NCBI GenBank assembly: GCA_964536725.1 | Contig: CAZHYJ010000001.1 | Coordinates: 53,018-117,017 of the forward strand | Reading direction: 5' to 3' | Origin: an uncultured Gammaproteobacteria bacterium | GTDB taxonomy: Bacteria > Patescibacteriota > Patescibacteriia > Magasanikbacterales > GWA2-37-8 | Length of the DNA stretch: 64,000 bases | Shown: positions 7,625 to 60,543 of the stretch, in pieces | Position numbering within the stretch: the stretch's first letter is position 1 | Layout of the letters: each line of letters begins with the position of its first letter | Made by a program: the position numbers and the translations under genes | Notes under the pieces: generated by a model | Database searches by the model: none | Told to the model about the DNA's origin: nothing | Seen by the model: only the letters and a program-made list of their open reading frames with translations

Positions 7625-7640
7625 TAACAGTCGAGTGGAG

Positions 7641-9483: not shown

Positions 9484-9510
9484 TATAATTTAATTTTAAT
9501 AATAAATAAA

Positions 9511-11912: not shown

Positions 11913-12024
11913 TATGATATTATAATTTAGTATATATTAGCTTAACTACAAAGACAAATTACTAATTACAATACCTAACCCCTAGAGACTTCTGGCGATT
12001 CTTTTCTAGGATATGGTAATCAAA

Positions 12025-12137: not shown

Positions 12138-12180
12138 GTTCTCTCGGCGAGCCCTAATTATTAAATCCTACGCGAAAAAT

Positions 12181-12903
12181 ATGAAGAAATATCTTCTAAT
12201 TTTATTCTTGGTAGCAATCATGTTTCCCTCGGTAGCTTTTGCTTCTTGGTGGAATCCTTTTTCTTGGAAAATTTTTAATTCCTCTCACAAAAAAGAAGTA
12301 GTGCTACAGGCACAGGCGGTTAATAATAAACCAGTAGTTAGTCCAACGGTAGAAAACAAAAAACTACAAAATCAAAATTTAAATTTAGAAAAAAAACCAA
12401 AAGAAATCGCTAATGATGAATGGTATAATGTTACAATTTTAACTCCTCCGAACAGAAAATCAGATGATCCACCTGGGGGAATGAAGTTTGAGGTTAAACT
12501 TAAAAATCTAAATGTAACCCCGTTTATTACAAATCTAGGTATCTGTGGATGTACTCTTTCTGATCTGAAAGGGAAAACCTACAGAACTGAATTTTCCGGT
12601 GAAGGTAGATTAAAAAAGGCTTTATTACCAGGAGAGGAAGCCAGCTTAAATTTTTTTAGTACGTTCAGTCATAGAGAATTTGTTAAAAATGGTGAAGTTG
12701 AGTGTCGCGGGGAAAATACTTTAGATTTTATTATGTTGGATTGGAGTAAAAATATAGTTAAGTGTATATATAATCAATCCGGTGAGTGTGCATGTGAAGA
12801 TCTTGGCCCAATGCATGTTGTGAATTGTGATTTCAGTATTTCAACAGATGGCAAGCAAGCTTCTTGCTGGGGCAAATATCCGACGACAGTAAAAATAGAT
12901 TAG
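12181..12903 (+). CDS. Secreted hypothetical protein (signal peptide MKKYLLILFLVAIMFPSVAFA)
   Basis: The ORF is open from 12013, but the N-terminal 56 codons overlap the structured RNA. The likely start is M12181. Confidence 0.5.
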   Translation: MKKYLLILFLVAIMFPSVAFASWWNPFSWKIFNSSHKKEVVLQAQAVNNKPVVSPTVENKKLQNQNLNLEKKPKEIANDEWYNVTILTPPNRKSDDPPGGMKFEVKLKNLNVTPFITNLGICGCTLSDLKGKTYRTEFSGEGRLKKALLPGEEASLNFFSTFSHREFVKNGEVECRGENTLDFIMLDWSKNIVKCIYNQSGECACEDLGPMHVVNCDFSISTDGKQASCWGKYPTTVKID

Positions 12904-17377: not shown

Positions 17378-17437
17378 AATAAAAATAAAATACACCTATT
17401 TTGTGAGTGTATTTTTTAATTTTGTATAAAAAATATA

Positions 17438-17590
17438 GTTCTAACATCCTCTACTAAGGAGCTCACTTTTCGTAAAACACCAAAACTCTGCTAAGTCTGG
17501 CAGAGTTTTTGGTTCTGATATTTGGCATAAGGTACATATATTTACTACCCCTTTGGAGAAAAAATGGCAAGAGTAGAACCGATTGAAAAA
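17438..17590 (+). repeat. Cassette-boundary repeat, copy 1 (long form): GTTCTAACATCCTCT..AAGGAGCTCA box, then hairpin AAAACTCTGC/GCAGAGTTTT with a T-run
   Basis: Near-identical over about 135 nt to the copy at 19598. It contains a tiny SD-ATG ORF (MARVEPIEK..). Confidence 0.6.
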
Positions 17591-17619
17591 GGATTATTTT
17601 TTTGGTATAGTTAATCATA

Positions 17620-18480
17620 ATGACTACTATTTTGAACCCCTGTTATTTTAACCTTTTTATGTATAGCATTCTTTTTCCGTTAATTTTGGTCTTTGTTATT
17701 TATTTTTTGGTAAAAGAATACAAAAGATACAGGTGGCCAAAGGTTTTTTCAAGAAAAATTACAAAAGAGCTGGGGAAACAGTTTGATAAATTGTGGAAAG
17801 CCAAAGATGACGGCCTCCTGGATTTGAAAATTTTTGATTCAGCCAAAAGAGTGTTTGAAAAATATTCTATTTACTTTTCTTCTTCTTTGGAATGGACACC
17901 ACTTCTTAAGAATGACGAAGGCCCAATCGACCCCGACCAGGCTGTGATTTTACGAAAGGAAATGGATAATTATTGGGTCATGGAAAAAAGTGTTATTTGC
18001 GATAATCATGTTTATAAATTTGAAGAAAAGCCCGATGGCGTTTTTATGCTTTTTAGGGATGGAGAATTAATAGGTGAAGTTAAAAGTGGAATTACGGATA
18101 GTAATAAAGTTTGTTTTATAAATCCACCAGACCCTAAATGTTTTTTTAATTCAACGCCATCTTGGGGAGAAGTTTTTGTCTGGAAAGATAACTATATTAT
18201 TAAAAGCTATACAGAGAATAGTGCCACCTTTAAAATCAATAATGACTTTTTAGAACTTCCAAAATCATGGGATGGAAAAATGAAAGCTCATGCTTTTGTT
18301 TTGGATAAAGATGGAGTTGTGGAATCTGCTGTTTTTGAAATCAAAGAAACATTAAATCCCCCGATTCCGCTGGATAATATTTATTGGTGCAAGTATCTTG
18401 GAAATGGAAAATTATCTCCACCAACATTGATTATTTCACAGGCTCATTTGGAAAGCGCGAGTATAAATGAGGTCAATTAA
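17620..18480 (+). CDS. Hypothetical protein with an N-terminal TM segment
   Basis: ORF only. Confidence 0.45.
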   Translation: MTTILNPCYFNLFMYSILFPLILVFVIYFLVKEYKRYRWPKVFSRKITKELGKQFDKLWKAKDDGLLDLKIFDSAKRVFEKYSIYFSSSLEWTPLLKNDEGPIDPDQAVILRKEMDNYWVMEKSVICDNHVYKFEEKPDGVFMLFRDGELIGEVKSGITDSNKVCFINPPDPKCFFNSTPSWGEVFVWKDNYIIKSYTENSATFKINNDFLELPKSWDGKMKAHAFVLDKDGVVESAVFEIKETLNPPIPLDNIYWCKYLGNGKLSPPTLIISQAHLESASINEVN

Positions 18481-18515
18481 ATTTATAGGTAGAAACCAAT
18501 TTATTTTGGTAAACC

Positions 18516-18577
18516 GTTCTAACATCCTCTATCAAGGAGCTCGCCGTAAACTTCGCTTAAACAGCGGGGTTTTTTGT
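18516..18577 (+). repeat. Cassette-boundary repeat, copy 2 (short form): conserved box, then G-U-containing hairpin AAACUUCGC/GCGGGGUUU with a T-run
   Basis: It shares the box and AAACTTCGCTTAAACAGCGGGGTT with the copies at 21124 and 22214. Confidence 0.6.
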
Positions 18578-18612
18578 TATACCCACAAGAAGAGTCGAAC
18601 TAAAACAAAAAA

Positions 18613-18638
18613 CACTCAGTAATTCTGAGAGTTTTTTA
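18613..18638 (+). terminator. Hairpin CTCAG-TAATT-CTGAG followed by AGTTTTTT
   Basis: Seen directly. Confidence 0.4.
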
Positions 18639-18790
18639 TTCCTCAATCACTTCTATAAATAAAAATGATAATCGGAGGGGAGGTCAAGACTTGCGTCACG
18701 ACCCCCGTTGCGAGTGCGTTCGTCAAACCTTGCGGTCTTCAGAACAGCACTGACACAGTTCCCCTCCGAGCGCGCCGGCCGTGTGACCGA

Positions 18791-19336
18791 CTACGCCGGC
18801 TTATCGGCCGACTTCTGCGCGCGCATGACCCGCACGTAGCCGAGCACGTCGGCCCAGCTCGAGACGAAGGCCGGGCCCATCACGTTCTCGTCGTGGACGA
18901 GGCCGTTCTGGGTCCAGAACTCGATCTCGGCGGCGTTGTTGTCGATGACGCCGGGGTCGTGGGGCTCGCGCGGGGCGCTGGGGCCGGGGAAGCTGGTGTA
19001 GAGCTGCCACGACGTGCCGTCGTCCGAGATGCCCGCGATGACCGTGAAGAGGGACGTCGGCTGCTTCTCGATCCCGACGAGGACGTGGCTCGGCACGTCG
19101 CGGCCCTTGCGGAACGCGAAGTACATCTGCCCGTTGTCCACGACGGGGAGGCAGCCGTTGAGGCCGACGATGCGCCCCATGTCGATGGTCGTCAGCAGGA
19201 ACCCCCCGCTCTCGGGCATGGTCACCATGCCGATCGCCTCCTCGAGGAGGGCCATCGCCTCGGGGTGCGCCTCGAGGTGCTTCTGGGTCTGGTCGGACAC
19301 GATGACCTTCTTGCCGCACTTGCTCTGGAATTCCAT
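18791..19336 (-). CDS. Hypothetical protein on a strongly GC-rich (foreign-composition) segment
   Basis: Of three overlapping long ORFs in this segment, only this frame has a balanced amino-acid composition. It also has a GGAGG Shine-Dalgarno 6 nt before the ATG. The segment, about 18.66-19.44 kb, is by eye roughly two-thirds G+C against AT-rich flanks. Confidence 0.55.
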   Translation of the reverse strand: MEFQSKCGKKVIVSDQTQKHLEAHPEAMALLEEAIGMVTMPESGGFLLTTIDMGRIVGLNGCLPVVDNGQMYFAFRKGRDVPSHVLVGIEKQPTSLFTVIAGISDDGTSWQLYTSFPGPSAPREPHDPGVIDNNAAEIEFWTQNGLVHDENVMGPAFVSSWADVLGYVRVMRAQKSADKPA

Positions 19337-19597
19337 CGGAAAACCTCCATTGTGGCCGGATTGGTTGCCGGCACTTGGTTCACTACCCGCCCTAAGAGCG
19401 CGGAATACTTAACGCCAGACTGACGTAAAATACACCGCGTTTTAGTGCAGATGATGTAAGGGAACTGTGTCTTGTAAAGAACAGCGTTCCATTATTAGGA
19501 ACCGAATGGTATAGCATAAAAAGGGATTTTTGTCAAGATTAAGGCTAAAAAATGGCTAATTTAACTGTTTGCACAAACTTCTCTATTTATCAAAGCA

Positions 19598-19731
19598 GTT
19601 CTAACATCATCTACTAAGCAGCTCAGATTTTCAAAAACCTCAAAACTCTGCTAAATCTGGCAGAGTTTTTGGTTCTGATATTTACTACCCCCTTTGGAGA
19701 AAAAATGGCAAGAGTAGAACCGATTGAAAAA
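19598..19731 (+). repeat. Cassette-boundary repeat, copy 3 (long form)
   Basis: Near-identical to copy 1, including the hairpin AAAACTCTGC/GCAGAGTTTT and the tiny ORF MARVEPIEK... Confidence 0.6.
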
Positions 19732-19892
19732 ACTGTAAATATCTGGTAATCTAATATGGTATATTATTTATATGGACAAACAAGAAGAGATTAAAAAAAT
19801 TAGAAAATTAGTTCAGAATAGAATTAAACTAAAAAAAGAACTGGCTAGCTTGCCAGAATTTAAGGAACGATTAAAAAAAGCAAAAGAAAAAT

Positions 19893-21068
19893 ATGAGGCC
19901 AAACAATGAGGGCATATCAATCGGTGCAACAGAACTTTCGCGTGAAAGGGTCCTTGAAATGTCACCAAAAGAATTGGTTGATTATTTTACTCACCTTGAA
20001 GAATCTGGGGGATTAGAAGCATACTTGCAAAGAGCTTCCAAGGATGATGCTTTGGTTGCTATGTTTAGTTATTGGGAAAAGTGGTTGACAAATGATCAGC
20101 GCGCGATGGTTGATGATATTGTAAGACAGAAAAAAGAGTTATATCCTGGAAACAGTGAGTCATTACCACTAGAATTGGAAAAAAGGTTTACTGGAGACGA
20201 ACTTGAAATTATTTTTTCAAATTTATTAGCTATACAACTTACTTTTGGTTGCTCCAAAGGTTGTCCGTTTTGCGGTTTTGATGCGGTTCCTGGCGTAAGA
20301 GAACACATACCTTATTCTCAATTGGCTAATATGTTTCAGAGGTTTGGTAAAGAGATTGGGGAAAGTAAGCCGTTGTTGTATTATGCTTCAGAACCAACCG
20401 ATTACCTCGACGAAGATAATACATACATGGATGTGCATCAGTTGGCAGTAGAGTATGCTAAGTATAAGCCACATGTAACGAGTAAAAATACTGATACTGA
20501 GTGGGTTGATTTTTTATCTAAAAAAGTAAATAAACCAAGAATAAGCTTGTTTGGTGTTCCAGAAGAATCAATATTAAATTTGGAAAGCTTGTCTGCAATC
20601 ACAGGTATTGAATTAGGGGGAAGACAAAAAAAACACTTTGAGGGTTTGGGAGTTTCAAGACAAAAGACAGAAGCGCCATTTAGTGTTGGGATAGGCTGTG
20701 GAAGTGGTATCTTAATTACACCACGAGGTTTGTATAATACTTTAACTTTATCAAGGACCAGCGATAGGTTTCCTCAGGGTATAGCAATTCAACCGTTTGA
20801 AAAAGAAGATGATAATTTTGATATAAAAATAGGGTCAGATGTTGTTGAAATAATGAAGAATACTTTAATAGGCAAGTTGCGTGCCATTACTGGTTTTTTC
20901 TTCGTAAGACAGCATGGTGTAAAAGTGTATGTAAAAGTTAATGACGCTGGTAAAGTTGTTGATTTTTACAAACAAAACGAACCTTGGAACCGGGCTGATC
21001 ACCAGCCATTTTTTGTGGAACTTGTTGATAGGCTCTTAGCGTCTGAGAAAGTAGCTGGTGTAAAATAA
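19893..21068 (+). CDS. Hypothetical protein with a CxxxCxxC motif (..TFGCSKGCPFCGFD..), possible radical SAM-like enzyme
   Basis: Only the CxxxCxxC motif was noted; the remaining radical-SAM signature was not checked. Confidence 0.4.
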   Translation: MRPNNEGISIGATELSRERVLEMSPKELVDYFTHLEESGGLEAYLQRASKDDALVAMFSYWEKWLTNDQRAMVDDIVRQKKELYPGNSESLPLELEKRFTGDELEIIFSNLLAIQLTFGCSKGCPFCGFDAVPGVREHIPYSQLANMFQRFGKEIGESKPLLYYASEPTDYLDEDNTYMDVHQLAVEYAKYKPHVTSKNTDTEWVDFLSKKVNKPRISLFGVPEESILNLESLSAITGIELGGRQKKHFEGLGVSRQKTEAPFSVGIGCGSGILITPRGLYNTLTLSRTSDRFPQGIAIQPFEKEDDNFDIKIGSDVVEIMKNTLIGKLRAITGFFFVRQHGVKVYVKVNDAGKVVDFYKQNEPWNRADHQPFFVELVDRLLASEKVAGVK

Positions 21069-21123
21069 ATAAATTTATTTTTATAAAAAATAGACAGATA
21101 ACAAATTAATTTATAATTAAATT

Positions 21124-21189
21124 GGTTCTAATATCCTCTGCCAAGGAGCTCAGATAAAAACTTCGCTTAAACAGTGGAGTTTTTTCTTA
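21124..21189 (+). repeat. Cassette-boundary repeat, copy 4 (short form)
   Basis: GGTTCTAATATCCTCTGCCAAGGAGCTCAGATAAAAACTTCGCTTAAACAGTGGAGTTTTTT. Confidence 0.6.
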
Positions 21190-21327
21190 ATATGGTATTA
21201 GAGAAGAGTCATATTTTATTGCTTTAAACCGTGAAAAAAGTAGTTTTTCTATATATTTTCACGGTTATATTGACAAAATAGTGAAAATATGCTATAATTG
21301 TATTAGATTCTACATTTAAGTTAGTAT

Positions 21328-22200
21328 ATGGCTAAAATATCTAATGTTTTCAATAAAATAAACGACTTACGTAAACGTTATTATTTAGCGGCTGTTGGCA
21401 GACAATCACTTTTGAAATTAATTAGCGAAACTGAAGTAGCTGAACAAGTTTACAATTCTAATGCTATAGAAAACAGCACTTTGTCCCTTGAAGAAACAGA
21501 AAAAATTCTACTGCAAATAGATCTGGACAGATATATTTCTGAGCGAGAAATTTTTGAAGCTAAAAATTTAGCACGTGTGGTCTCATATATAGATACCAAA
21601 GCTAAAGAAAAAGAACTCGATTTGGATGTTATTTTGATGTTACACAAAATGTTAATTAGTAATATTAGAGAAGACGTAGCGGGACGTTTTAGAAAAGAAA
21701 ATGAGTGGGTGCGAGTTGGTAATCATATAGCAGTTGATCCTAAAGAAATAATTGGTCGCTTAGAAAAAATGCTAGCTGAGTACAATGCCGAGAGCCAAGA
21801 AAATGTTATAAAAAGAATAGCACGTTTGCATTTAGCTTTTGAATACGTTCATCCTTTTGTCGATGGTAATGGTCGAATTGGTAGAGTGTTAAATAATTAT
21901 TTATTGATCAGAGAAGGGTTTGTGCCGATAAATATTAAATTTATTGATAGAAAAATGTATTATGAAGCATTCAAAGAGTTTGACACCAATGAAGCGACGG
22001 GTGTAATGGAGGAGATCGTCGGCCGTGCTTTGACCAATAGTTATCATAAGAGGTTGGCATATTTAGAGAGTAAAAATATTATTACCCTTAAAGAGTACGC
22101 ACAAAAAAATAAAATATCACATTCAAACGCTATCAACAAGGCTACTCGTCAAACTATTGAAGCTTTTTTGGAAAAGGGAATTTGGAAAATTGGAGAATAA
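21328..22200 (+). CDS. Fic/Doc-family protein (putative AMPylase)
   Basis: The canonical Fic motif HPFVDGNGRIGR is present. Confidence 0.8.
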   Translation: MAKISNVFNKINDLRKRYYLAAVGRQSLLKLISETEVAEQVYNSNAIENSTLSLEETEKILLQIDLDRYISEREIFEAKNLARVVSYIDTKAKEKELDLDVILMLHKMLISNIREDVAGRFRKENEWVRVGNHIAVDPKEIIGRLEKMLAEYNAESQENVIKRIARLHLAFEYVHPFVDGNGRIGRVLNNYLLIREGFVPINIKFIDRKMYYEAFKEFDTNEATGVMEEIVGRALTNSYHKRLAYLESKNIITLKEYAQKNKISHSNAINKATRQTIEAFLEKGIWKIGE

Positions 22201-22213
22201 TTTGTTGTAAGCA

Positions 22214-22278
22214 GGTTCTAACATCCTCCACCAAGCAGCTCACCGTAAAACTTCGCTTAAACAGCGGGGTTCTTTGTT
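22214..22278 (+). repeat. Cassette-boundary repeat, copy 5 (short form)
   Basis: GGTTCTAACATCCTCCACCAAGCAGCTCACCGTAAAACTTCGCTTAAACAGCGGGGTTCTTTG. Confidence 0.6.
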
Positions 22279-30851: not shown

Positions 30852-30949
30852 GTAATCGGCCGAAGTCTCCATTTTAGTAGAGTTAAAAGAATTTATCTTA
30901 ATCGATCTCTGAAGCAAGTTCGAATGTCATCTAACACCCGCAACAAATA

Positions 30950-30976
30950 AAAAATGACCTAATGGCCATTTTTTAT
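30950..30976. terminator. Bidirectional hairpin terminator between convergent genes (AAAAATGACC-TAAT-GGCCATTTTT)
   Basis: Seen directly. A/T runs lie on both sides. Confidence 0.45.
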
Positions 30977-30994
30977 TTTTATATATTTTTTGTT

Positions 30995-36290: not shown

Positions 36291-36330
36291 ATTAGCGAAT
36301 ATATATTTAGGTTTATCTTTTTTAAAACAT

Positions 36331-36378
36331 TTGTTTCGGTGCCGCGGTCGCTGTGACGCTTCCTAGGCACCTCAACAA
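36331..36378. terminator. Palindromic element TTGTTTCGGTGCC-N22-GGCACCTCAACAA, family copy A; likely bidirectional terminator
   Basis: A near-identical copy lies at 60396-60443. There are 13-nt inverted arms, and the flanks are A/T-rich. Confidence 0.45.
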
Positions 36379-36394
36379 AAATTTTAAAAAATCT

Positions 36395-38541: not shown

Positions 38542-41500
38542 ATGCATACTGCCACGGCCACGCGAACTTTCAAAGTCGATAATGATTTTAAATATTCTCC
38601 GGAAAATGGTTTGCGTTTCAAGCGTCACTTCACGCAAGATGGAGTAAGTCCGTATGATTTGTTTCAGTATGAGTTACGCGCTTCAGTTATTCGTGAAACG
38701 AGTGGTCGGGTAATTTTTGAAATGAACGATGTTGAAGTTCCAACTGTTTGGTCGCAAGTGGCGACTGATATTTTGGCACAAAAATATTTTCGTAAAGCCG
38801 GTGTCCCGCAATATGATGCCGATGGTCATGCTAAGCTTAATACTGACGGGACTCCCGTGCTTGGTCCTGAGAAAAGTGTTAAACAAGTTGCCCATCGGCT
38901 AGCTGGTACTTGGCGTTATTGGGGAGAGAAGTTTGGCTATTTCGCTTCCGTTGGTGACGCACAAGTTTTTTATGATGAACTAGTTTACACTTTGATCAAA
39001 CAGATGACTGCACCGAATTCTCCGCAGTGGTTTAATACTGGCTTATATTGGGCGTATGGAATTAACGGTCCTTCGCAAGGTCATCATTACGTTGATCCAA
39101 CTACCGGAGTGTTGATGGCGGCTACTGATTCATATTCTCACCCTCAGCCGCATGCTTGTGGTCGTTATGATACAAAATTATTTACCGATCGCGGCATAAT
39201 GAATTTGGGAGATGTGGTGGAAAACAATATGGCGGGTATAAAAGTATTCGATGGAGAAAATTATGTTGTCGTGAAGGCGGTAAAGAACAATGGTGTCAAG
39301 AAAATTTATCGTGCCAATTTAAAAAATGGAAATTATTTGGATTTTACTGACGATCATTTGGTGTGGTCAGCGGACAAACGTCTAAAAGATGGTGGCCAAT
39401 ATGATTGGAGTGAGTTGTCCACAATCTTAGGAAAAAAAGTGCAACAATTCTCTTTGCCTGCAGAGGTAAGTAATGTGGCTAAAGAAAATGATTTAGATTT
39501 GTTCCAAGCAGAGTTGGCAGGTTGGGTTTTGGGTGATGGGTATTATGGAAAATATGGTAAAAACAAGAAGAGTACGGTATTTGGGGTGATAACAATCAAC
39601 GATGATGAGTTTAATAGCGTAACCAATTTATTCAACAACGTTTTCGGGCGTTATACAGTAAGGATAAAACGTTCAGTGGATGACTTGTATCGGACAATTT
39701 GTTGTGATTCTAAGCAAGTAGACGAATATGTGCAGAATTTTGAATTGGAAAAAAATGTCTATACAGCGTCTGTGCCAGAAAAGATTTGGCAGGGCAGTAA
39801 CAGGGTGAAGGCAGTCTTCTTGCGTGGTCTGTTTCAGGCTGACGGTAGTGTACGTTTGAGAAAAGATGATGATCGAAATAGCGGAGATGTGGTTTTGACT
39901 ACTGTGTCAGAAGAGTTGGCACATGGAGCACAAATGTTGTTGTTACAATTAGGAATATATTCTCGAATCGTACCTTGTCATGATAGTCGCGAAGATCGAC
40001 ACGAATGTTATCAGGTGGTTATTGCTTTTTATTCAGAAAGAAAGAGATACGAGGAGTTAATTGGTTTTGTTTCGCAAGATAAACAGGAGAAATTGAAATT
40101 GTTAAACAGCATAGTGGAAGGGAAAAACAAAGAAAATTTATCAGAGGAGACAGTCGTGTCAGTTGACTATATCGGTGAGGAAGAGGTTTATGATATTCAG
40201 ACGGAATCCAGCAAATTTTTGGCCAATGGCGTGGTGGTACACAACTGTTTCATTCAATCCGTGCGCGATGATTTGGTGAACGAGGGTGGTATTATGGATC
40301 TGTGGATTCGTGAGGCACGATTGTTTAAATATGGATCAGGTACGGGCACTAACTTTTCTAATTTGCGTGGCAAGGGAGAAAAATTATCAGGTGGTGGAAC
40401 GACTTCGGGTTTAATGAGCTGGTTGAAGATTGGTGATCGTGCAGCTGGTGCGATTAAATCTGGCGGCACCACTCGTCGAGCAGCCAAGATGGTAATTTTA
40501 AATATTGATCATCCGGATATCGAGGAGTTTATCAACTGGAAAGTTTTGGAAGAGAAAAAAGTGGCGGCTTTGATTGCTGCTGGTTATGATTCCTCCTATG
40601 AAAGTGAGGCCTATCAAACTGTTTCGGGGCAGAACTCTAATAATTCAGTGCGTGTTAATCAAGCATTTTTGGAAGCAGTGGAAAGTGGTATTGATTGGAA
40701 TTTGACTTGGCGCACTGATGGTAAGGTTTGTAAAACGTTGCCGGCGCGTAATCTTTGGGATCAAATCGCACACGCTGCTTGGGCTTGTGCTGATCCTGGT
40801 ATTCAATTTGATTCGACCATTAACGAGTGGCACACCTGTCCGCAGTCGGGCACGATTAACGGCTCCAATCCTTGTAGTGAGTACATGTTCTTAGATGACA
40901 CAGCCTGCAATTTAGCGTCAATAAACTTGGCTCATCTTTATGATTCAGAAACTGCGACCTTTGATATTTCTGGATTTACTTATGTCACTCGTCTGTGGAC
41001 GGTAGTTTTGGAGATTAGTGTTTTGATGGCGCAATATCCAAGCGCTGAAATTGCCCAAGGTAGCTATGACTATCGCACGCTTGGTTTAGGTTATGCCAAC
41101 ATTGGTTCGCTGTTGATGACAGCAGGCGTGCCATATGATTCGCCAACCGCCTTGGCTTTTGCTGGCAGTGTGACAGCTTTAATGACTGCTGAATCCTATG
41201 CCACCTCAGCTGAAATGGCGCGACTACATGGTCCATTTCCTAAATACGAAGAGAATCGCGCCGATATGCTGCGTGTGATTCGCAACCATCGCCGTGCTGC
41301 CTTTGGTGTTTCAGATGATGAGTATGAAGGGTTGTCTGTAATGCCGTTATCTATTGATCCACAATATGCTCCAGCTTATCTTTTGGCGGCAGCGCGTGAA
41401 AGTTGGAACAAAGCTTTAGAGATGGGGGAGAAATATGGTTTTAGAAATGCCCAAACTACCTTGCTTGCTCCAACTGGTACAATTGGTTTGTTGATGGACT

Positions 41501-43077
41501 GTGCAACTACCGGTGTAGAACCAGATTTTTCTTTAGTGAAGTTTAAAAAATTGGCCGGTGGCGGATATTTTAAGATTGTAAATGAATCGGTACCGATGGC
41601 GTTAAAAACTTTAGGGTATAACGATACACAGATTAGTGGTGTAATTGATTATCTTAAGGGTCGTGCGACTTTGCACAACTGTCCAGAGATCAACTTTGAG
41701 TCTTTAAAAGCAAAAGGTTTTACTGAAGAAGATATTAACAAAGTAGAAAAAGGTTTAGCGGGGGTTTTTGAACTACCATTTACTTTTAATGTTTGGACTT
41801 TGGGTGAGGAGTGTTTGAAACGTTTAGGGTTTACCAGCGAACAATACAATGATCAGAATTTTGATCTACTGACCGCGCTTGGATTTACACGCGAGCAAAT
41901 TAATATTGCTAACGAATTTGTTTGTGGTGCTATGACAATTGAAGGTGCGCCACACTTACGTCAGGAGCACTATGCTGTATTTGATACGGCTAATAAAAAC
42001 GGAAGAAAAGGTGAGCGTTATATCCACTACCTCGGTCATATCCGAATGATGGCGGCAGTACAACCGTTTTTATCGGGCGCAATTTCCAAAACCATCAACA
42101 TGCCAAACGAGGCAACTGAAGAAGATATTAAGATTGCTTACAACGCTTCGTGGAAGTTGGCTTTGAAAGCGATCGCGATTTATCGTGATGGTTGTAAATT
42201 GTCTCAGCCATTGTCGAGTAAGAGTGTTGATAAAAAAGAAAAGAAAGAAGAAGTTGTGTCAGTAGAAAAAGAAATTATGTCAACGCCAGTTGCCAGTGCT
42301 ATGCCAGCACATTCTGACAGCCAGATGCAGGTTAGTTATGCGCACGATGGATCGGAAAATGGTAAACAGATATATATACATGGCGAGCAGCGTAAGATGC
42401 CTTACAAACGCAGTGGCTTAACAATTAAAGCAAAAGTGGGTGGGCAAAAATTATTCTTGCGCACGGGTGAATATCCAGATGGGAAATTGGGTGAAGTATT
42501 CATCGATATGTACAAGGAGGGGGCGTCGTTCAGAAGTCTGCTTAATTTGTTTGCTATTTCCATTTCTACTGGCTTGCAATACGGCGTGCCATTGGAGGAA
42601 TATGTCGACAAGTTTATCTTTACTCGTTTTGAGCCGAGCGGCATGACGGATCATCCAAATATTAAGCTTTCAACTTCGATCGTTGATTTCATTTTCCGGG
42701 TACTTGGTATGGAATATTTGGGACGGACCGATTTTGTTCAGGTTAAACCAGCGGGCATTCAAAAAAATCGTGTGGAGCAATTGGCAAAATTAATGGCGGA
42801 AGCGGCTGGGCAAAAAACAATGGAATTGCCGGAGATAAAAGAAGACACTGAAGACGAAGTGGAAAAAGAAAAAATAATTTTGAAAGATCCAGAGGCAACG
42901 AAGGACCAGATGGAATTGTTTAAAAAAGAGGTCGCTGCAGCAACAGCTAGTGTTGATCAGCAGTTGGCAGGAATGATGGGTGATGCACCGCCATGTTCAA
43001 CTTGTGGACATACTACAGTGCGTAGCGGAACCTGTTATAAATGTTTGAATTGTGGTGGAACCACGGGTTGTAGCTAA
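38542..43077 (+). CDS. nrdJ: Class II (adenosylcobalamin-dependent) ribonucleotide reductase NrdJ interrupted by an intein
   Basis: RNR motifs are ..GSNPCSEYMFLDD..CNLASINL.. and a C-terminal Cys4 finger (CSTCGHT...CYKCLNCGG). An in-frame 363-aa insertion sits at the conserved ..PHA|C..HN|CFIQS site. Confidence 0.85.
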   Translation: MHTATATRTFKVDNDFKYSPENGLRFKRHFTQDGVSPYDLFQYELRASVIRETSGRVIFEMNDVEVPTVWSQVATDILAQKYFRKAGVPQYDADGHAKLNTDGTPVLGPEKSVKQVAHRLAGTWRYWGEKFGYFASVGDAQVFYDELVYTLIKQMTAPNSPQWFNTGLYWAYGINGPSQGHHYVDPTTGVLMAATDSYSHPQPHACGRYDTKLFTDRGIMNLGDVVENNMAGIKVFDGENYVVVKAVKNNGVKKIYRANLKNGNYLDFTDDHLVWSADKRLKDGGQYDWSELSTILGKKVQQFSLPAEVSNVAKENDLDLFQAELAGWVLGDGYYGKYGKNKKSTVFGVITINDDEFNSVTNLFNNVFGRYTVRIKRSVDDLYRTICCDSKQVDEYVQNFELEKNVYTASVPEKIWQGSNRVKAVFLRGLFQADGSVRLRKDDDRNSGDVVLTTVSEELAHGAQMLLLQLGIYSRIVPCHDSREDRHECYQVVIAFYSERKRYEELIGFVSQDKQEKLKLLNSIVEGKNKENLSEETVVSVDYIGEEEVYDIQTESSKFLANGVVVHNCFIQSVRDDLVNEGGIMDLWIREARLFKYGSGTGTNFSNLRGKGEKLSGGGTTSGLMSWLKIGDRAAGAIKSGGTTRRAAKMVILNIDHPDIEEFINWKVLEEKKVAALIAAGYDSSYESEAYQTVSGQNSNNSVRVNQAFLEAVESGIDWNLTWRTDGKVCKTLPARNLWDQIAHAAWACADPGIQFDSTINEWHTCPQSGTINGSNPCSEYMFLDDTACNLASINLAHLYDSETATFDISGFTYVTRLWTVVLEISVLMAQYPSAEIAQGSYDYRTLGLGYANIGSLLMTAGVPYDSPTALAFAGSVTALMTAESYATSAEMARLHGPFPKYEENRADMLRVIRNHRRAAFGVSDDEYEGLSVMPLSIDPQYAPAYLLAAARESWNKALEMGEKYGFRNAQTTLLAPTGTIGLLMDCATTGVEPDFSLVKFKKLAGGGYFKIVNESVPMALKTLGYNDTQISGVIDYLKGRATLHNCPEINFESLKAKGFTEEDINKVEKGLAGVFELPFTFNVWTLGEECLKRLGFTSEQYNDQNFDLLTALGFTREQINIANEFVCGAMTIEGAPHLRQEHYAVFDTANKNGRKGERYIHYLGHIRMMAAVQPFLSGAISKTINMPNEATEEDIKIAYNASWKLALKAIAIYRDGCKLSQPLSSKSVDKKEKKEEVVSVEKEIMSTPVASAMPAHSDSQMQVSYAHDGSENGKQIYIHGEQRKMPYKRSGLTIKAKVGGQKLFLRTGEYPDGKLGEVFIDMYKEGASFRSLLNLFAISISTGLQYGVPLEEYVDKFIFTRFEPSGMTDHPNIKLSTSIVDFIFRVLGMEYLGRTDFVQVKPAGIQKNRVEQLAKLMAEAAGQKTMELPEIKEDTEDEVEKEKIILKDPEATKDQMELFKKEVAAATASVDQQLAGMMGDAPPCSTCGHTTVRSGTCYKCLNCGGTTGCS
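39157..40245 (+). other. Intein with a LAGLIDADG homing-endonuclease domain inside nrdJ
   Basis: It starts with Cys (CGRYDTKLFTDRG..) and ends ..VVVHN before extein CFIQS. The motif ..LAGWVLGDGYYGK.. is present. Splicing would restore the conserved ACF active-site region. Confidence 0.7.
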
Positions 43078-43085
43078 AATATATA

Positions 43086-43118
43086 ATGCCACTCTAATCA
43101 GGAGTGGCATTTGATGTG
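43086..43118 (+). terminator. Hairpin ATGCCACTC-TAATCAG-GAGTGGCAT with a T-containing tail after nrdJ
   Basis: Perfect 9-bp stem. Confidence 0.45.
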
Positions 43119-43168
43119 TACTTTAAATATCAAATGTTCAGGTTCTAATTCTAAGTTATTTATTTTCT

Positions 43169-45175: not shown

Positions 45176-45440
45176 TTGTAATTTTTAGTTATCAACAGGC
45201 AGCTTCACTTGACGGTGAGCGTGAATCAGATATAATGTTTGAGTGCTTTTCTTTAAAGAGCTGCGGTAGAGTTGATGTTTCAACCGAATCGGATTTTAAA
45301 AACAATCTCTCTCTCTTTTTCCTTACATTAAGTTGTCTGGATTAAGCGTTTTCATAATTTGATTCGTTAGCTAAAACATGCAATTCTTCTCGCAGCTCCT
45401 TGGAGGAAAGTATTTTTGTTTAAAAAGAATAATAGGATCA

Positions 45441-45546
45441 GGATTTACACGTTTGATAATTTTTTCGCTTTCCTCGGCCACGAGGCCTCAGGGATGAAGT
45501 CTGTGGACTTCATAACCCGCTCAAAAAATATCAAACGTGTAAATCC
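45441..45546. mobile_element. MITE-like palindromic element with perfect 18-bp terminal inverted repeats (GGATTTACACGTTTGATA); second copy at 56158-56254
   Basis: The TIRs are seen directly. Two internal hairpins differ between the copies by compensatory base changes. Confidence 0.5.
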
Positions 45547-45553
45547 TGGGGTA

Positions 45554-45582
45554 TTGAATTTTTTTAATAGACGTGATAATAT
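45554..45582 (+). promoter_or_regulatory. Promoter for tRNA-Leu (TTGAAT-17-TAATAT)
   Basis: The hexamers are seen directly; the tRNA begins 13 nt downstream. Confidence 0.5.
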
Positions 45583-45594
45583 TTTCTTGGTTTT

Positions 45595-45679
45595 GCCCAG
45601 GTGGTGAAATTGGTAGACACAAGAGACTTAAAATCTCTCGCCGCAAGGCTTGCGGGTTCGATTCCCGCCCTGGGCACCA
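45595..45679 (+). tRNA. tRNA-Leu (anticodon TAA), long variable arm, CCA encoded
   Basis: Acceptor GCCCAGG/CCTGGGC; anticodon stem AGAGA/TCTCT; loop CTTAAAA; variable arm CGCCGCAAGGCTTGCGG; T-arm CGGG-TTCGATT-CCCG. Confidence 0.85.
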
Positions 45680-54310: not shown

Positions 54311-56152
54311 ATGCGTATTAAACAAACTATCTTTTTGGTATTAAGCGGATGCTTGGCTCTAGGGGCCGGATTGCTTGGTTTTTGGTTTGGTCCGGAGGTT
54401 GGGAAATATACCCAAAATTTGCCGGAGCCAGCTTTAGCGGAAACGACTGGCCCAAACTCCGCCAACGTAATTTCCACCGTCTTTGCTTCGGAAGAAATGT
54501 ACAAAGACTTTTTTGCTTACCCGCGCTCGATTGTTGCTCCAACAAATACAGTAATGTCATTGGTTCTGCCCCATCATTTGGTGGCTGGTAGTTATGTTGC
54601 CGGTGTTTTTGAAGGGGTAAAAAATTCTCGTCCACCGGTGGTAGTGGTGATTGGTCCAAACCATCAACAAGCCGGTGGTAGTTTTGTTTTATCTACCAAA
54701 TTAGGGTGGCAGACAATGGGCGGTGTGCTTTCATCCAATTCTCAAGTTATCGACTCATTAGTGGCGAGTAATTTAGTTGGTATTGATGATGCGGTTTTAA
54801 CCAACGAACACAGCGTGGGTGCTTTGGCGCCGTTTATCAAAAACACCTGGCCTAGTACAAAAATCGTACCGCTGGTAATTAAAAATATTAAAAATGATGA
54901 ATTAGCGGATGGACTAGCTTCAAAGTTGTATGAAGTTTTACCGGTTGGCAGTTTGGTAATTGCCAGTGTAGATTTTTCCCACTATCTACCCAAAACAGTC
55001 GCGAATTTTCATGATGATTTGTCGATCAATGTTTTGAGTACTGGTGATATGGGGCGAATTAAAAAAATGGAGATTGATAGTCAAAACAGTATTCGTGCTT
55101 TGTTAAAATACAACAGTATTGTCGGGGCACAAAGATTTACTTTGGCATATCACACCAACAGCGCGGATATTATGAATAGTGACCTGGCCGAAACCACCTC
55201 GCATGTGTTGGGATATTTTACTCGTGAGACTCGTGCGGAACAGCCAATGATTTCTTTGCAGTTGTTTGGTGATATGATGATAGAGCGAAGTGTGGAAAGG
55301 AATTTTGGTAAGAGTGGTTTGGATTATGTTTTTAAAAATTTAAAGGGTCAAGAAAACAGATTCTTTTATGGCGTGGATTTGTTGTTGGCCAACTTAGAAG
55401 GTCCATTTGCCCCCGCGCGTGTTCCGACCACCAAGTCAATCGCTTTTCGTTTTAATCCGGATTTAGCACCACAGTTAAAGCGTTACGGTTTTACCGGTTT
55501 TTCTTTGTCCAACAACCATGGGTTAGATATGGGTTTCAAAAATTACGATTTTACGAAGAAAATTTTAACCGATAATGGTTTGACATATTTTGGTCATCAG
55601 ACTAAAGAGGGAGCGGAATACACTTGGGTTGCCGGTGAAAAAGAAGGGTTACCAGAAAAGGTGGCGTTTATTGGTATCAACAATACTGACCATCCGCTAA
55701 ATATGGCCAAGGTAAAAAGTGCAATTGATGCGGCCAAAAAAGAAGCGCGGTATGTTATCGTCTACGCGCATTGGGGCAATGAATATCAGCGCATTTCTCA
55801 CCAGACCCAAAGAGATCTAGGTCATTGGTTGATTGATAACGGGGTGACGGCAGTGGTTGGTATGCATCCGCATGTTATTCAAGAGATGGAAATTTACAAA
55901 GGCCAGCCAATTTTTTACTCTTTAGGCAACTTTGTTTTTGATCAATATTTTTCCAAAGATACTCAAGAAGGCGTGAGCGTTGGGTTGAATTTGCAAGACG
56001 GGCAGGTGAAGGATGTATATGTTTTTCCTTTTTACGGCGTTAAGTCACAGGACAGTTTAATGAGTGGAAAACGTCAAACGGATTTCTTTACCTGGTGGAA
56101 TAAAAACAGCCGACTGGGTGAGAAGACTTTTGAAAATAATAAATTAAAATAA
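54311..56152 (+). CDS. Fusion protein: N-terminal TM, Memo-like (AmmeMemoRadiSam system protein B-like) domain, then CapA/PGA_cap metallophosphatase-like domain
   Basis: Memo-like region ..LVLPHHLVAGSYVAGVFEG..VVVIGPNHQ... CapA-like region ..SLSNNHGLDMGF.. and ..YAHWGNEYQRISHQTQRDLGHWLIDNGVTAVVGMHPHVIQ..SLGNFVFDQ... Confidence 0.55.
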   Translation: MRIKQTIFLVLSGCLALGAGLLGFWFGPEVGKYTQNLPEPALAETTGPNSANVISTVFASEEMYKDFFAYPRSIVAPTNTVMSLVLPHHLVAGSYVAGVFEGVKNSRPPVVVVIGPNHQQAGGSFVLSTKLGWQTMGGVLSSNSQVIDSLVASNLVGIDDAVLTNEHSVGALAPFIKNTWPSTKIVPLVIKNIKNDELADGLASKLYEVLPVGSLVIASVDFSHYLPKTVANFHDDLSINVLSTGDMGRIKKMEIDSQNSIRALLKYNSIVGAQRFTLAYHTNSADIMNSDLAETTSHVLGYFTRETRAEQPMISLQLFGDMMIERSVERNFGKSGLDYVFKNLKGQENRFFYGVDLLLANLEGPFAPARVPTTKSIAFRFNPDLAPQLKRYGFTGFSLSNNHGLDMGFKNYDFTKKILTDNGLTYFGHQTKEGAEYTWVAGEKEGLPEKVAFIGINNTDHPLNMAKVKSAIDAAKKEARYVIVYAHWGNEYQRISHQTQRDLGHWLIDNGVTAVVGMHPHVIQEMEIYKGQPIFYSLGNFVFDQYFSKDTQEGVSVGLNLQDGQVKDVYVFPFYGVKSQDSLMSGKRQTDFFTWWNKNSRLGEKTFENNKLK

Positions 56153-56157
56153 AGAAA

Positions 56158-56254
56158 TTATACGTTTGATATTTTTTGAGCGGGTTATGAGGCCAAGGCC
56201 TCATCCCTGAGGCTTCGCAGCCGAGGAAAGCGAAAAAATTATCAGACGTATAAT
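56158..56254. mobile_element. Second copy (inverted orientation) of the MITE-like palindromic element
   Basis: TIR of about 14 bp (ATTATACGTTTGATAT/TATCAGACGTATAAT). Internal hairpins are GGCT-GCGA-AGCC and ATGAGGCC-TT-GGCCTCAT, against GGCC-ACGA-GGCC and ATGAAGTC-TGTG-GACTTCAT in copy 1. Confidence 0.5.
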
Positions 56255-56271
56255 TTCTAAAACATTATTCT

Positions 56272-60320: not shown

Positions 60321-60395
60321 AAGTACTATAATAAAATATCCCAGACTAAGCTAGCTGGGATATTTTATTTACAGTCATTATCGTCTTAAAAATAC

Positions 60396-60443
60396 TTGTT
60401 TCGGTGCCGCGGTCGTCGCGAGTCTTCCTAGGCACCTCAACAA
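60396..60443. terminator. Palindromic element, family copy B, between convergent epmA-like and pfkB genes
   Basis: Same arms as the copy at 36331-36378; the central 9 nt differ. Confidence 0.5.
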
Positions 60444-60543
60444 TTATTTTTAAAACTCATATTTTTTAAAATTTTTATTGAGAAGCCTAGGGAGCTTCGC
60501 AGCGACCGGGGCTTCGAAATAAATGTTTTAAAAAATTAAATCA

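What the first reader, a model, noticed from the sequence alone, without database searches (positions are those of the whole stretch)
45441..45546. MITE-like palindromic element with compensatory hairpin substitutions, present twice in opposite orientations
Copy 1 has perfect 18-bp terminal inverted repeats (GGATTTACACGTTTGATA / TATCAAACGTGTAAATCC). The interior has T6/A6 outer arms and two hairpins. Copy 2 (56158-56254, inverted) keeps the architecture. Its hairpin sequences are swapped by paired changes: GGCC-ACGA-GGCC becomes GGCT-GCGA-AGCC, and ATGAAGTC-TGTG-GACTTCAT becomes ATGAGGCC-TT-GGCCTCAT. Structure preserved through compensatory change points to selection on the fold (RNA or cruciform DNA) rather than simple duplication. 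One copy sits just upstream of the tRNA-Leu promoter; the other lies between capA-like and yebC.
Basis: seen in the sequence. Interest (0 to 1): 0.5.

Follow-up and report, generated by a model that had tools for sequence, protein, structure and literature searches.

The report
Structured hairpin repeat family, CPR bacteria
The two palindromes are real and belong to an apparently undescribed family of about 105-nt hairpin elements scattered through the small genomes of Candidatus Magasanikbacteria, in which a conserved three-way-junction core sits on top of a long stem that pairs in every copy but whose outer half differs between most copies; this is unlike an ordinary miniature transposon, and its function is unknown.

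Summary
Observation confirmed. Copy 1 (45440-45547) and copy 2 (56153-56258, inverted) are 87% identical. About 8 paired substitutions separate them, including 3 in the supposed terminal inverted repeat (TIR).

The MITE reading is only partly right. Two collection scans plus a covariance model gave 53 distinct copies, from 9 Magasanikbacteria (CPR) genomes plus metagenome contigs. All share a ~57-nt core (three-way junction, two hairpins). The closing stem (median 24 bp) keeps only a subfamily-specific inner ~10 bp; its outer half differs between most copies yet is always paired. Overall, 93.6% of cells pair, against 62% when shuffled, and 33 of 39 pairs show double changes. There is no conserved TIR, no target-site duplication, no partner transposase in the fetched DNA and no Rfam family.

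Folding is strand-specific: G·U 42 against A·C 2 in the stem. That strand is '-' for copy 1 and '+' for copy 2, and the bias holds whichever way the neighbouring genes run (15 sense, 15 antisense).

Elements fill intergenic spacers, are present or absent at orthologous sites, and are inverted between strains that are 99.5% identical.

Best guess (0.45): a structure-specified selfish hairpin element that propagates through a folded single strand. Main rival (0.3): a host small-RNA family. It is a new variant of interspersed palindromic repeats.

The parts
45440..45547 (-). Copy 1, whole hairpin element (108 nt). The folding strand (called Y) is the minus strand.
   Evidence: Sequence. Fold: -51.7 kcal/mol on '-', z -9.5. 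Covariance-model hit of 106.6 bits on '-'.
45523..45547 (-). Copy 1, stem P1 5' arm on strand Y, including the U-run. It pairs with 45440-45465.
   Evidence: alignment A3 columns 9-31 pair with 91-113.
45440..45465 (-). Copy 1, stem P1 3' arm on strand Y, including the A-run.
45466..45522 (-). Copy 1, conserved three-way-junction core. On Y it reads GAGCGGGUU, hairpin P3 (45494-45513), CCCUGA, hairpin P2 (45476-45487, loop UCGU here and UCGC in the strain variant L193), GAGGAAAGCG.
   Evidence: Alignments. P2 loop SNP.
56153..56258 (+). Copy 2, whole hairpin element (106 nt). The folding strand Y is the plus strand. It starts 1 nt after the capA-like stop codon (56150-56152) and ends 13 nt before the yebC ATG (56272).
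   Evidence: Fold: -48.2 on '+' against -41.7 on '-'. Covariance-model hit of 118.3 bits on '+'.
56153..56177 (+). Copy 2, P1 5' arm. It pairs with 56234-56258.
   Evidence: (I16).
56178..56232 (+). Copy 2 core: GAGCGGGUU (56178-56186), P3 hairpin (56187-56204), CCCUGA, P2 hairpin (56211-56222), GAGGAAAGCG (56223-56232).
56234..56258 (+). Copy 2, P1 3' arm.
43078..43168 (+). Empty site. The RNR-IMPDH spacer has no element here and holds only a plain hairpin (ATGCCACTC..GAGTGGCAT). The orthologous spacer in L044 carries a family member.
36318..36391 (-). Sister family, copy a. It has a long AU-rich stem closed by the same UUGAG...CGAAA tandem-G·A motif but a different 38-nt core.
   Evidence: (D2).
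60383..60456 (-). Sister family, copy b.
60461..60536 (+). Sister family, copy c. It lies next to copy b in the opposite orientation, between convergent genes.

Best explanation
The two palindromes belong to a lineage-specific family of interspersed hairpin elements of about 105 nt in Candidatus Magasanikbacteria (Candidate Phyla Radiation).

Shown: each copy has a conserved core of about 57 nt that forms a three-way junction. Read on the folding strand Y, the core is UUU-GAGCGGGUU-[P3 hairpin]-CCCUGA-[GGCC-UCGC-GGCC]-GAGGAAAGCG-AAAA. Tandem G·A pairs sit at the P1/junction boundary and at the base of P2. The core is closed by a stem of 14-34 bp (median 24). Only the inner ~10 bp of that stem are subfamily-specific, and they carry a conserved pyrimidine-pyrimidine mismatch. 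The outer half differs between most copies. One strand folds: G·U outnumbers A·C by 42 to 2, whichever way the neighbouring genes or replication run. The elements are strictly intergenic and often fill the whole spacer. They occur equally in both orientations, lack target-site duplications, are present or absent at orthologous sites, and can be inverted between near-identical strains.

Inferred: it is most likely a non-autonomous selfish element specified by structure plus core sequence rather than by terminal repeats. A still unidentified trans-acting enzyme would copy or move it through a folded single-stranded intermediate of strand Y. The stem arms would stay complementary at least partly because one arm is templated on the other (fold-back or hairpin-primed synthesis, or arm-to-arm correction). 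That would also yield G·T rather than A·C mispairs on that strand. The host tolerates the element in spacers, where the long stem can double as a terminator-like hairpin.
For: Family size and spread:
- 26 exact two-anchor matches in 9 species-representative genomes, with at least 14 in one MAG.
- 43 metagenome stretches found from a P2-side pattern alone, and these still carry the 5' anchor.
- 53 distinct copies in all.

Structure:
- RNAalifold predicts 39 pairs, 31 of them with compensatory change.
- On 53 sequences, 93.6% of cells pair against 62.1% when shuffled. The covariation score is 0.77 against 0.175, and pairing falls to about 40% when partners are slid.
- The tandem G·A pairs are replaced by Watson-Crick pairs in L025, L038_200, L030_8026 and L076.

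Strand:
- Stem P1 has G·U 42 against A·C 2. The bias holds in sense (12:0), antisense (11:2), convergent (9:0) and divergent (3:0) contexts.

Behaviour typical of mobile or selfish DNA:
- Always intergenic, with orientation 15 sense, 15 antisense, 10 convergent and 7 divergent.
- Identical 55-57-nt cores sit in unrelated stems within one genome.
- Related stems occur at non-orthologous loci.
- The capA-yebC site is occupied in the window and in L076 but is a clean 10-nt spacer in the closer relative L075.
- The window's RNR-IMPDH spacer is empty where L044 is occupied. The L016 atpE-atpF spacer is empty where L019 and L051 are occupied.
- The element is inverted at three orthologous sites. In one case the strains are about 99.5% identical outside the element over 3.3 kb, and both arms carry symmetric 2-nt indels.
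- Assemblies break or mis-join in the core.

Not a known RNA: no Rfam family at the gathering threshold, and only generic hairpin hits far below it.
Against: - No transposase, reverse transcriptase or nickase is linked to it, and no long autonomous version or solo end appears in the fetched loci.
- No target-site duplication and no conserved target motif.
- The unpaired core bases are invariant or nearly so. The same sites stay occupied across genomes whose flanking proteins are only 60-90% identical. Both fit a host function as well as a selfish one.
- The two window copies lie on opposite strands with respect to replication, because GC skew is positive throughout. The orientation split is 15:15. 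Neither fits the IS200/IS605-type dependence on the lagging-strand template.
- The P2 loop is a GNRA tetraloop (GCGA), and many P3 loops are UNCG- or CUUG-like, but on the strand opposite to the one the stems favour. This is unexplained.
- One-arm templating from target DNA could not be confirmed. The only suggestive empty-site alignment (window against L044) is in diverged AT-rich sequence.
- The invariance of the two anchor blocks is partly forced by the search patterns.
Confidence: 0.45

Rival explanations
1. A host-functional family of small structured RNAs, or cis-acting RNA modules. The Y-strand transcript would fold into the three-way junction on a long double-stranded stem and be bound or processed by a host protein (for example RNase III on the ~24-bp stem, or a protein recognising the junction). 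In that case the multi-copy dispersal would be secondary.
For: - G·U strongly outnumbers A·C, tandem sheared G·A motifs alternate with Watson-Crick pairs, and hairpins tolerate apical insertions (L018, L061). All are classic RNA signatures.
- The unpaired junction bases (GAGCGGGUU, CC, AAAGCG) are invariant or nearly so, even in the divergent orthologous copy L076.
- Sites stay occupied across genomes with 60-90% flank identity.
Against: - There is no conserved promoter. Upstream sequence is variable and often the end of a coding region only 0-15 nt away.
- Half of the copies in co-directional contexts are antisense to their neighbours, yet they show the same wobble bias.
- T-runs after the stem are no commoner than A-runs before it (13 against 15 of 53), so no strand-specific transcript end is visible.
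- Flips and presence/absence between close relatives are odd for a fixed regulatory RNA.
- It matches no Rfam family.
Confidence: 0.3
2. Elaborate intrinsic terminators or mRNA 3'-end protecting hairpins, with a REP-like or ERIC-like host role. The long stem would be the functional part, and the core only a conserved apical decoration inherited with it.
For: - 10 of 53 copies have an A-run, a GC-rich stem base and a T-run, just like the plain bidirectional terminators of these genomes. Window examples are 7584-7626, 30945-30978 and 60330-60369.
- Many copies begin 0-15 nt after a stop codon.
- Empty orthologous spacers hold plain hairpins.
Against: - 43 of 53 copies lack the paired A/T tracts.
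- 7 copies sit between divergent genes.
- In L044, L021 and L030 a separate plain terminator already precedes the element.
- A terminator role does not explain the invariant junction sequence or the wobble bias tied to core orientation rather than to gene direction.
Confidence: 0.12
3. A classical MITE. This would be a deletion derivative of a DDE-type insertion sequence, recognised through ~18-bp terminal inverted repeats and inserted with a target-site duplication.
For: Multi-copy, about 100 nt, intergenic, palindromic, found in both orientations, and showing presence/absence polymorphism.
Against: - The terminal repeats are not conserved between most copies, and the interior is what is conserved.
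- Flanking direct repeats are no more frequent than with permuted partners, for k = 2-6.
- No parent element or solo end was found.
- Strand-specific wobble pairing is not expected for a transposase that binds double-stranded DNA.
Confidence: 0.05
4. An assembly or binning artefact, or a chance palindrome.
For: Some Logan contigs join the left flank of copy 1 to the right flank of another copy, L066.
Against: Independent assemblies from ENA, JGI, NCBI and Logan carry the same copies with unique flanks. Folding z-scores are -7 to -9.6, and covariation is massive.
Confidence: 0.01

Closest known systems
REP / REPIN elements (mobilised by RAYT, a Y1 HUH transposase) and IS200/IS605-derived palindrome-associated elements
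   Same: Short, non-coding, highly repeated intergenic palindromes. They have no classical TIR or TSD, fold strand-specifically as a single strand and tolerate G·T. REPINs are ~100-nt hairpins.
   Different: REPs are 20-40 nt with a conserved stem sequence and a GTAG/CGTC tag (Di Nocera et al., PMC3733652). Here the stem is variable and a 57-nt three-way-junction interior is conserved. No conserved flanking tetranucleotide, no replication-strand bias in the window, and no RAYT gene was identified.
Correia (NEMIS) elements of Neisseria and ERIC elements of enterobacteria
   Same: Palindromic repeats of about 100-150 bp in spacers, in both orientations. When co-transcribed they fold into long hairpins. 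From my own knowledge, some are RNase III or RNase E substrates or act as terminators.
   Different: Those have conserved 26-bp TIRs and a TA duplication (Correia), and their whole-length sequence is conserved. Here only the apical core is conserved, and there is no duplication.
Integron attC sites
   Same: The structure rather than the stem sequence is conserved. One specific strand folds, conserved mismatches or extrahelical bases are present, and the site sits immediately after a stop codon.
   Different: attC keeps its conserved boxes at the base of the stem and has a variable centre, which is the reverse of this element. attC sites occur in same-orientation arrays beside an integrase. These copies are dispersed among housekeeping genes in both orientations.
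Parvovirus / AAV inverted terminal repeats (T-shaped hairpin with flip and flop forms)
   Same: A long stem bears two small internal hairpins at a three-way junction. Both inversion states occur, and the arms appear templated on each other (symmetric indels).
   Different: ITRs are genome termini processed by a Rep nickase. These are internal chromosomal sites with no Rep gene seen. The resemblance is one of shape only.
Small hairpin-associated inversions in plastid non-coding DNA
   Same: The segment between short inverted repeats is inverted recurrently between close relatives (own knowledge). Here this is seen for the whole element (L019 against L051) and for the P3 loop.
   Different: Those are passive by-products of any hairpin. 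They do not explain a conserved multi-copy core.
Rfam structured-RNA motifs of CPR bacteria (for example LOOT RNA, present in this window at 11972-12115)
   Same: A lineage-restricted structured non-coding motif of unknown function, found by covariation.
   Different: There is no sequence or structure match to LOOT or to any of the 4227 Rfam models. This element has many copies per genome and is orientation-free.

Membership tests
MITE (DDE-transposon derivative) | Terminal inverted repeats conserved among copies | tested here: not met
   The outer stem differs between most of the 53 copies. Only about 10 inner bp are subfamily-specific.
MITE (DDE-transposon derivative) | Target-site duplication flanking each copy | tested here: not met
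   Flanking direct repeats for k = 2-6 were seen in 27, 11, 5, 1 and 1 copies, against permuted means of 25.3, 10.8, 4.2, 1.4 and 0.4.
MITE (DDE-transposon derivative) | A related autonomous IS with the same ends | tested here: inconclusive
   No solo core halves or halves separated by 0.1-4 kb were found in the fetched loci. Whole genomes were not searchable.
MITE (DDE-transposon derivative) | Multi-copy, dispersed, with presence/absence at orthologous sites | tested here: met
REP / REPIN-RAYT | A 20-40 nt GC-rich palindrome with a conserved stem and a GTAG or CGTC tag | tested here: not met
   The stem sequence is variable and AT-rich, and no conserved tag lies next to it.
REP / REPIN-RAYT | A cognate RAYT (Y1 transposase) gene in the genome | not testable with these tools
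   Only windows of 20 kb or less around hits were available. No whole-genome protein census was possible.
IS200/IS605-type single-strand elements | Strand-specific folding of subterminal hairpins | tested here: met
   G·U 42 against A·C 2 on one strand.
IS200/IS605-type single-strand elements | A conserved target tetra- or pentanucleotide at the left end, and an orientation bias with replication | tested here: not met
   The bases next to the core vary by subfamily. The two window copies have opposite orientations within one region of uniformly positive GC skew. The split against gene direction is 15:15.
Any Rfam 15 RNA family | A covariance-model score at or above the gathering threshold | tested here: not met
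   The whole window gave only tRNAs and LOOT. In E-value mode the region gave only miRNA-like or leader hits of 12-27 bits, against thresholds of 48-211.
Intrinsic (bidirectional) terminator | A GC-rich stem followed by a U tract (and preceded by an A tract if bidirectional) | tested here: inconclusive
   10 of 53 copies have both tracts, 15 have an A-run and 13 a T-run. Neither window copy has them.
Integron attC | Conserved R/L boxes at the stem base, a variable centre, and a same-orientation array next to intI | tested here: not met
   The conservation pattern is inverted. Copies are dispersed in both orientations.
Self-cleaving ribozymes (hammerhead, twister and others) | Core consensus nucleotides, or a hit to the Rfam model | tested here: not met
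   No Rfam hit. The CUGA...GA...GAAA-like strings do not fit the hammerhead core, and the G·A pairs are replaceable by Watson-Crick pairs.

The most novel reading that the evidence does not exclude
A new kind of bacterial mobile element defined by fold rather than by terminal sequence. A ~57-nt three-way-junction module would be propagated through a folded single strand. Its long closing stem would be regenerated by templating one arm on the other (fold-back synthesis), which gives a stem that differs between copies yet stays perfectly paired, an excess of G·T over A·C, symmetric indels and flip/flop inversion. This would be a chromosomal analogue of rolling-hairpin termini, in ultra-small CPR genomes otherwise poor in transposons. 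A sister family in the same window shares only the closure motif UUGAG...CGAAA, hinting at a common recognition protein.
Probability: 0.15. Interest if true: 0.85.

Novelty: new variant of a known kind. Interest (0 to 1): 0.6.

Why it matters
CPR (Patescibacteria) genomes are tiny, uncultivated and thought to carry few repeats, so a family with at least 14 copies in a single MAG is a notable feature of their genome biology.

- Its conservation pattern is invariant junction, free stem and one folding strand that ignores gene and replication direction. None of the standard classes (MITE, REP/REPIN, attC, terminator, known small RNA) fits this. It points either to an unrecognised mobilisation mechanism acting on folded single strands or to an unrecognised RNA-protein system in this lineage.
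- Practically, the element breaks and mis-joins short-read assemblies of these organisms.
- The covariance model built here could be used to census the family and to find the co-occurring protein.

Tried and rejected
- Known RNA families: searched in gathering and E-value modes. Nothing beyond generic hairpin matches.
- Hammerhead, K-turn and tRNA-like readings of the core: considered by eye and rejected. The consensus positions do not fit, the G·A pairs are symmetric (no 3-nt bulge) and replaceable by Watson-Crick pairs, and ARAGORN calls nothing there.
- A short ORF starting at the AUG of P3: rejected because AUG...CAU covaries with CGG...CCG.
- Phage origin: no blastn match in 50,697 phage records. 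A loose viral-contig pattern gave 115 stretches, and none of the 80 tested scored with the model, so these are chance hits.
- Autonomous parent element: no solo or widely spaced core halves.
- Target-site duplication: none.
- 'The core inserts into the loop of a pre-existing terminator': attractive for the 10 of 53 copies with A/T tracts. However, the L075 empty site is a bare 10-nt spacer, and in L044, L021 and L030 the element sits beside an intact plain terminator rather than inside it.
- 'One arm is copied from target DNA': only one weak, AT-rich alignment (window 43130-43150 against the L044 arm), so left open.
- Replication-strand dependence: rejected for the window using GC skew.
- A wider superfamily sharing the GAG...CGA closure: apart from the window's sister family there was one possible extra case (L036 10165-10249) and otherwise chance hits.
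- Literature: two full-text searches found no description of such repeats in Magasanikbacteria or Patescibacteria. One possibly relevant 2026 preprint was not held.

Full report
**1. Observation**

The full hairpins are 45440-45547 and 56153-56258, in opposite orientations, and are 87% identical over the aligned stretch, flanks included.

- Every quoted detail holds: the perfect 18-bp inverted repeat of copy 1, the T6/A6 runs, the two inner hairpins and the paired changes in both hairpins.
- Three further paired changes lie inside the supposed terminal repeat itself (G-C to A-T, T-A to A-T, C-G to T-A).
- Each copy folds far better than shuffled sequence on either strand (z from -7.2 to -9.6).
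- The conserved blocks occur exactly twice in the window, against about 0 expected.
- Pfam and ARAGORN confirm the neighbours. Upstream of copy 1 are a class II RNR with an intein, IMPDH and a cobalamin adenosyltransferase. Downstream are tRNA-Leu(taa), rpoB and rpoC. Copy 2 lies between a Memo/PGA_cap fusion gene and yebC-ruvC.
- A LOOT RNA match and the later hits place the window in the Candidate Phyla Radiation.

**2. It is a large family**

Two Logan contigs with an identical YebC both end inside copy 2, the first hint of a genomic repeat.

- A two-anchor pattern found 26 matches in 25 stretches from 9 species-representative genomes. Nearly all are labelled Candidatus Magasanikbacteria, and one MAG has at least 14.
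- A metagenome scan using only the P2-side block found 43 more stretches.
- A covariance model (R1) recovered full-length elements in all of them, plus extra copies that fail the exact patterns.
- After removing duplicates there are 53 distinct copies.
- Caveat: the two anchor blocks are invariant in the genome set by construction. However, the metagenome set was ascertained from the 3' side only and still carries the 5' block GAGCGGGUU almost unchanged, as does the divergent orthologue L076.

**3. Anatomy**

Laying the copies side by side overturns the TIR idea. The interior is conserved and the outer stem is not.

On the folding strand (Y) the element reads: P1 5' arm, U-run, GAGCGGGUU, P3 hairpin, CCCUGA, GGCC-UCGC-GGCC (P2), GAGGAAAGCG, A-run, P1 3' arm.

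- RNAalifold gives 39 pairs, 31 with at least one compensatory double change.
- On 53 distinct sequences, 93.6% of cells form a standard pair, against 62.1 ± 0.8% after shuffling. The covariation score is 0.77 against 0.175. Sliding the partners by 1-3 columns drops pairing to 38-46%.
- P1 is 14-34 bp long, median 24. Its inner ~10 bp fall into subfamilies (for example CUGAUA-U6 / A6-UUAUCAG, or AGUUAC-U4 / A5-GUCACU) and contain a conserved pyrimidine-pyrimidine mismatch. The outer ~12 bp differ between most copies.
- Variants refine the junction. The G32·A90/A33·G89 tandem at the P1 boundary becomes two Watson-Crick pairs in L030_8026 and L038_200. The stretch CUGA...GAGG at the base of P2 is fully Watson-Crick in L025, L038_200 and L076. 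So P2 is an 8-bp helix with tandem G·A, and P1 runs continuously into a 2-bp P1b.
- The junction strands are G36, none, and A84-A86.
- L018 and L061 carry extra hairpins at the P3/P2 side, so the apical regions tolerate insertions.

**4. Which strand folds**

In the orientation of copy 1's plus strand, P1 mismatches are A·C (30) rather than G·U (3). On the opposite strand Y, all 53 copies give G·U 42 against A·C 2. Y is therefore the minus strand for copy 1 and the plus strand for copy 2.

- The bias is the same for copies sense to both neighbours (12:0), antisense (11:2), between convergent genes (9:0) and between divergent genes (3:0).
- Tandem G·A pairs, stable on Y, would be C·U pairs on the other strand.
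- One observation points the other way. The P2 loop is GCGA (GNRA), and many P3 loops are UGCG, CUUG or UUCG, on the non-folding strand. I cannot explain this. The P3 pattern (UGYG) is not a clean UNCG signature, so I weight it less than the 42:2 count.

**5. Genomic behaviour**

- All copies are intergenic and often occupy the whole spacer, with gaps of -3 to about 20 nt to the flanking ORFs.
- Orientation relative to the neighbours is 15 sense, 15 antisense, 10 convergent and 7 divergent.
- There is no target-site duplication.
- 10 of 53 copies have an A-run before and a T-run after the stem, like the plain bidirectional terminators of these genomes. The window copies do not.
- GC skew is positive across the whole window, so the two window copies lie on opposite strands with respect to replication.

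**6. Turnover**

Flank comparisons give several kinds of evidence.

a) Orthologous sites can be occupied in several genomes with entirely different outer stems (L005_7179/L023_1961/L008_7812, and L038_200/L069).

b) Three orthologous sites hold the element in opposite orientations (L019/L051, L004/L013, L021/L030_8026).

c) Empty sites exist:
- The window's RNR-IMPDH spacer holds only a plain hairpin where L044 has an element.
- L016 has a plain 11-bp hairpin between atpE and atpF where L019 and L051 have the element.
- For copy 2 itself, the closer relative L075 (YebC 85% identical) has a bare 10-nt capA-yebC spacer. The more distant L076 (78%) has a divergent element in the same orientation.
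- So the whole hairpin, stem included, is the unit of gain or loss.

The L019/L051 pair is the sharpest case. Outside the element the strains differ at only a handful of scattered positions plus one 9-nt indel over 3.3 kb (about 99.5% identity). Yet the hairpin is inverted, its stem is about 30% different with 2-nt indels mirrored in both arms, and the P3 loop is reverse-complemented relative to the rest of the core.

Within genomes, identical 55-57-nt cores sit in unrelated stems (L009/L010/L021; copy 2/L052; copy 1/L066). Conversely, related stems occur at unrelated loci (copy 1, copy 2 and L054; the CACCGG group). Either cores and stems recombine, or stems are remade when the core moves.

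Contigs L196 and L200 join copy 1's left half to L066's right half through the identical core. This is probably an assembly chimera, but a real recombinant is not excluded.

**7. Interpretation**

The data exclude chance, artefact and a classical MITE. They fit an interspersed, structure-specified element whose relevant form is a folded single strand.

I favour a selfish, non-autonomous element (0.45) for these reasons:
- orientation is random;
- the strand bias ignores host transcription and replication;
- sites are gained, lost and flipped between close relatives;
- cores spread among unrelated stems.

Mirrored indels, and G·T far in excess of A·C, would both follow if one arm is synthesised on the other on strand Y. 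This is inference, not shown.

The main rival (0.3) is a host small-RNA family. The invariant junction, the RNA-like motifs and the long-term site occupancy argue for it. The lack of any promoter or strand-specific end signal, and the 15 antisense copies, argue against it.

A pure terminator or stabiliser role (0.12) explains only a fifth of the copies, though hosts may well exploit the stem.

**8. Relation to known families**

The element behaves most like REP/REPIN, Correia or ERIC repeats. It shares with integron attC the principle of 'structure, not sequence, one strand', but its conservation pattern is the reverse of all of these. Its T-shape and flip/flop recall parvoviral terminal hairpins.

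- It matches no Rfam model.
- It has no phage counterpart.
- Two literature searches found no description.
- A sister family in the same window (36318-36391, 60383-60456, 60461-60536) has a different core. It shares the long AU-rich stem and the exact closure UUGAG...CGAAA with tandem G·A. Those three plus the two copies are the only five hairpins in the window with that signature.

**9. Verdict**

This is a real, apparently undescribed family, and a new variant of interspersed palindromic repeats with an unusual architecture and an unknown mechanism. Interest 0.6.

Noticed in passing
window 36318-36391 (-), 60383-60456 (-), 60461-60536 (+): A second family of hairpin repeats. It has a long AU-rich stem closed by the same UUGAG...CGAAA tandem-G·A motif as the studied family, but a different 38-nt core (GGUGCC...GGCACC). 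Two copies sit back to back between convergent genes.
   Followed up: partly
window 11972-12115 (+): A LOOT RNA (Rfam RF03000) match at 63.6 bits, above the gathering score. This motif of unknown function marks OD1/OP11/TM7-type CPR lineages. It overlaps the start of the ORF at 12013-12903.
   Followed up: partly
window 38542-43077 (+): A class II (B12-dependent) ribonucleotide reductase interrupted by an intein with a LAGLIDADG homing-endonuclease domain (Pfam Intein_splicing and LAGLIDADG_3). A cobalamin adenosyltransferase gene lies two genes downstream.
   Followed up: partly
window 9500-9585: A strong long hairpin (minus strand -38.8 kcal/mol, z -7.2). An A-run/GGGCGGUCUG...CAGACCGUCC/U-run stem encloses a 42-nt insert with its own UUCG-type hairpin, at the 5' end of the minus-strand ORF 7895-9541. 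It is unrelated in sequence to the studied family.
   Followed up: no
window 259-3329 and 17437-22278: Diverged direct repeats of 60-125 nt (66-89% identical). One set lies within a run of paralogous ORFs at 49-4071. The other lies at the ends and spacers of paralogous ORFs at 17620-22200, where the shared spacer block is GGTTCTAACATCCTC..AAGGAGCTC followed by a terminator-like hairpin.
   Followed up: no
L076 3733-3877 (yebC-ruvC spacer of a relative): A perfect tandem duplication of a 72-nt unit that contains its own hairpin (GAAATGAAAAACACATTTTTCATTTC). This is another spacer-filling repeat type in this lineage.
   Followed up: no
L196 3061-3321 and L200 969-1229, compared with window 45380-45640: Two Logan contigs join copy 1's left arm and core to the right arm and flank (gatB side) of another copy, L066, through the identical core. 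This is either an assembly chimera or a real recombinant between copies.
   Followed up: partly
L013, L014, L015, L018, L023 (records CAZEYR01, CAYHBZ01, CAZXFG01): MAGs titled 'uncultured Gammaproteobacteria' carry this Magasanikbacteria-specific element, and L014/L023 (CAYHBZ01) and L018 (CAZXFG01) share orthologous flanks with Magasanikbacteria MAGs. The taxonomic labels are probably wrong.
   Followed up: no
window 43088-43113 compared with L044 (about 2437-2463): Orthologous plain terminator hairpins after the RNR gene keep a similar loop (TAATCAG / TAACCAA) but have completely different stems. Even ordinary hairpin stems therefore turn over with compensation at about 85% protein identity.
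   Followed up: no
window 45480, compared with L193: Copy 1's unusual P2 loop (ACGA on the plus strand) is a single SNP away from the family-typical GCGA, which is present in a strain variant. Copy 2's strain variant L040 has one pair-breaking SNP in P3.
   Followed up: yes
L036 10165-10249 (+): A hairpin with a 14-bp stem and the same GAG...CGA closure, but a different 85-nt interior that includes its own terminator-like hairpin. It may be a third related family.
   Followed up: no
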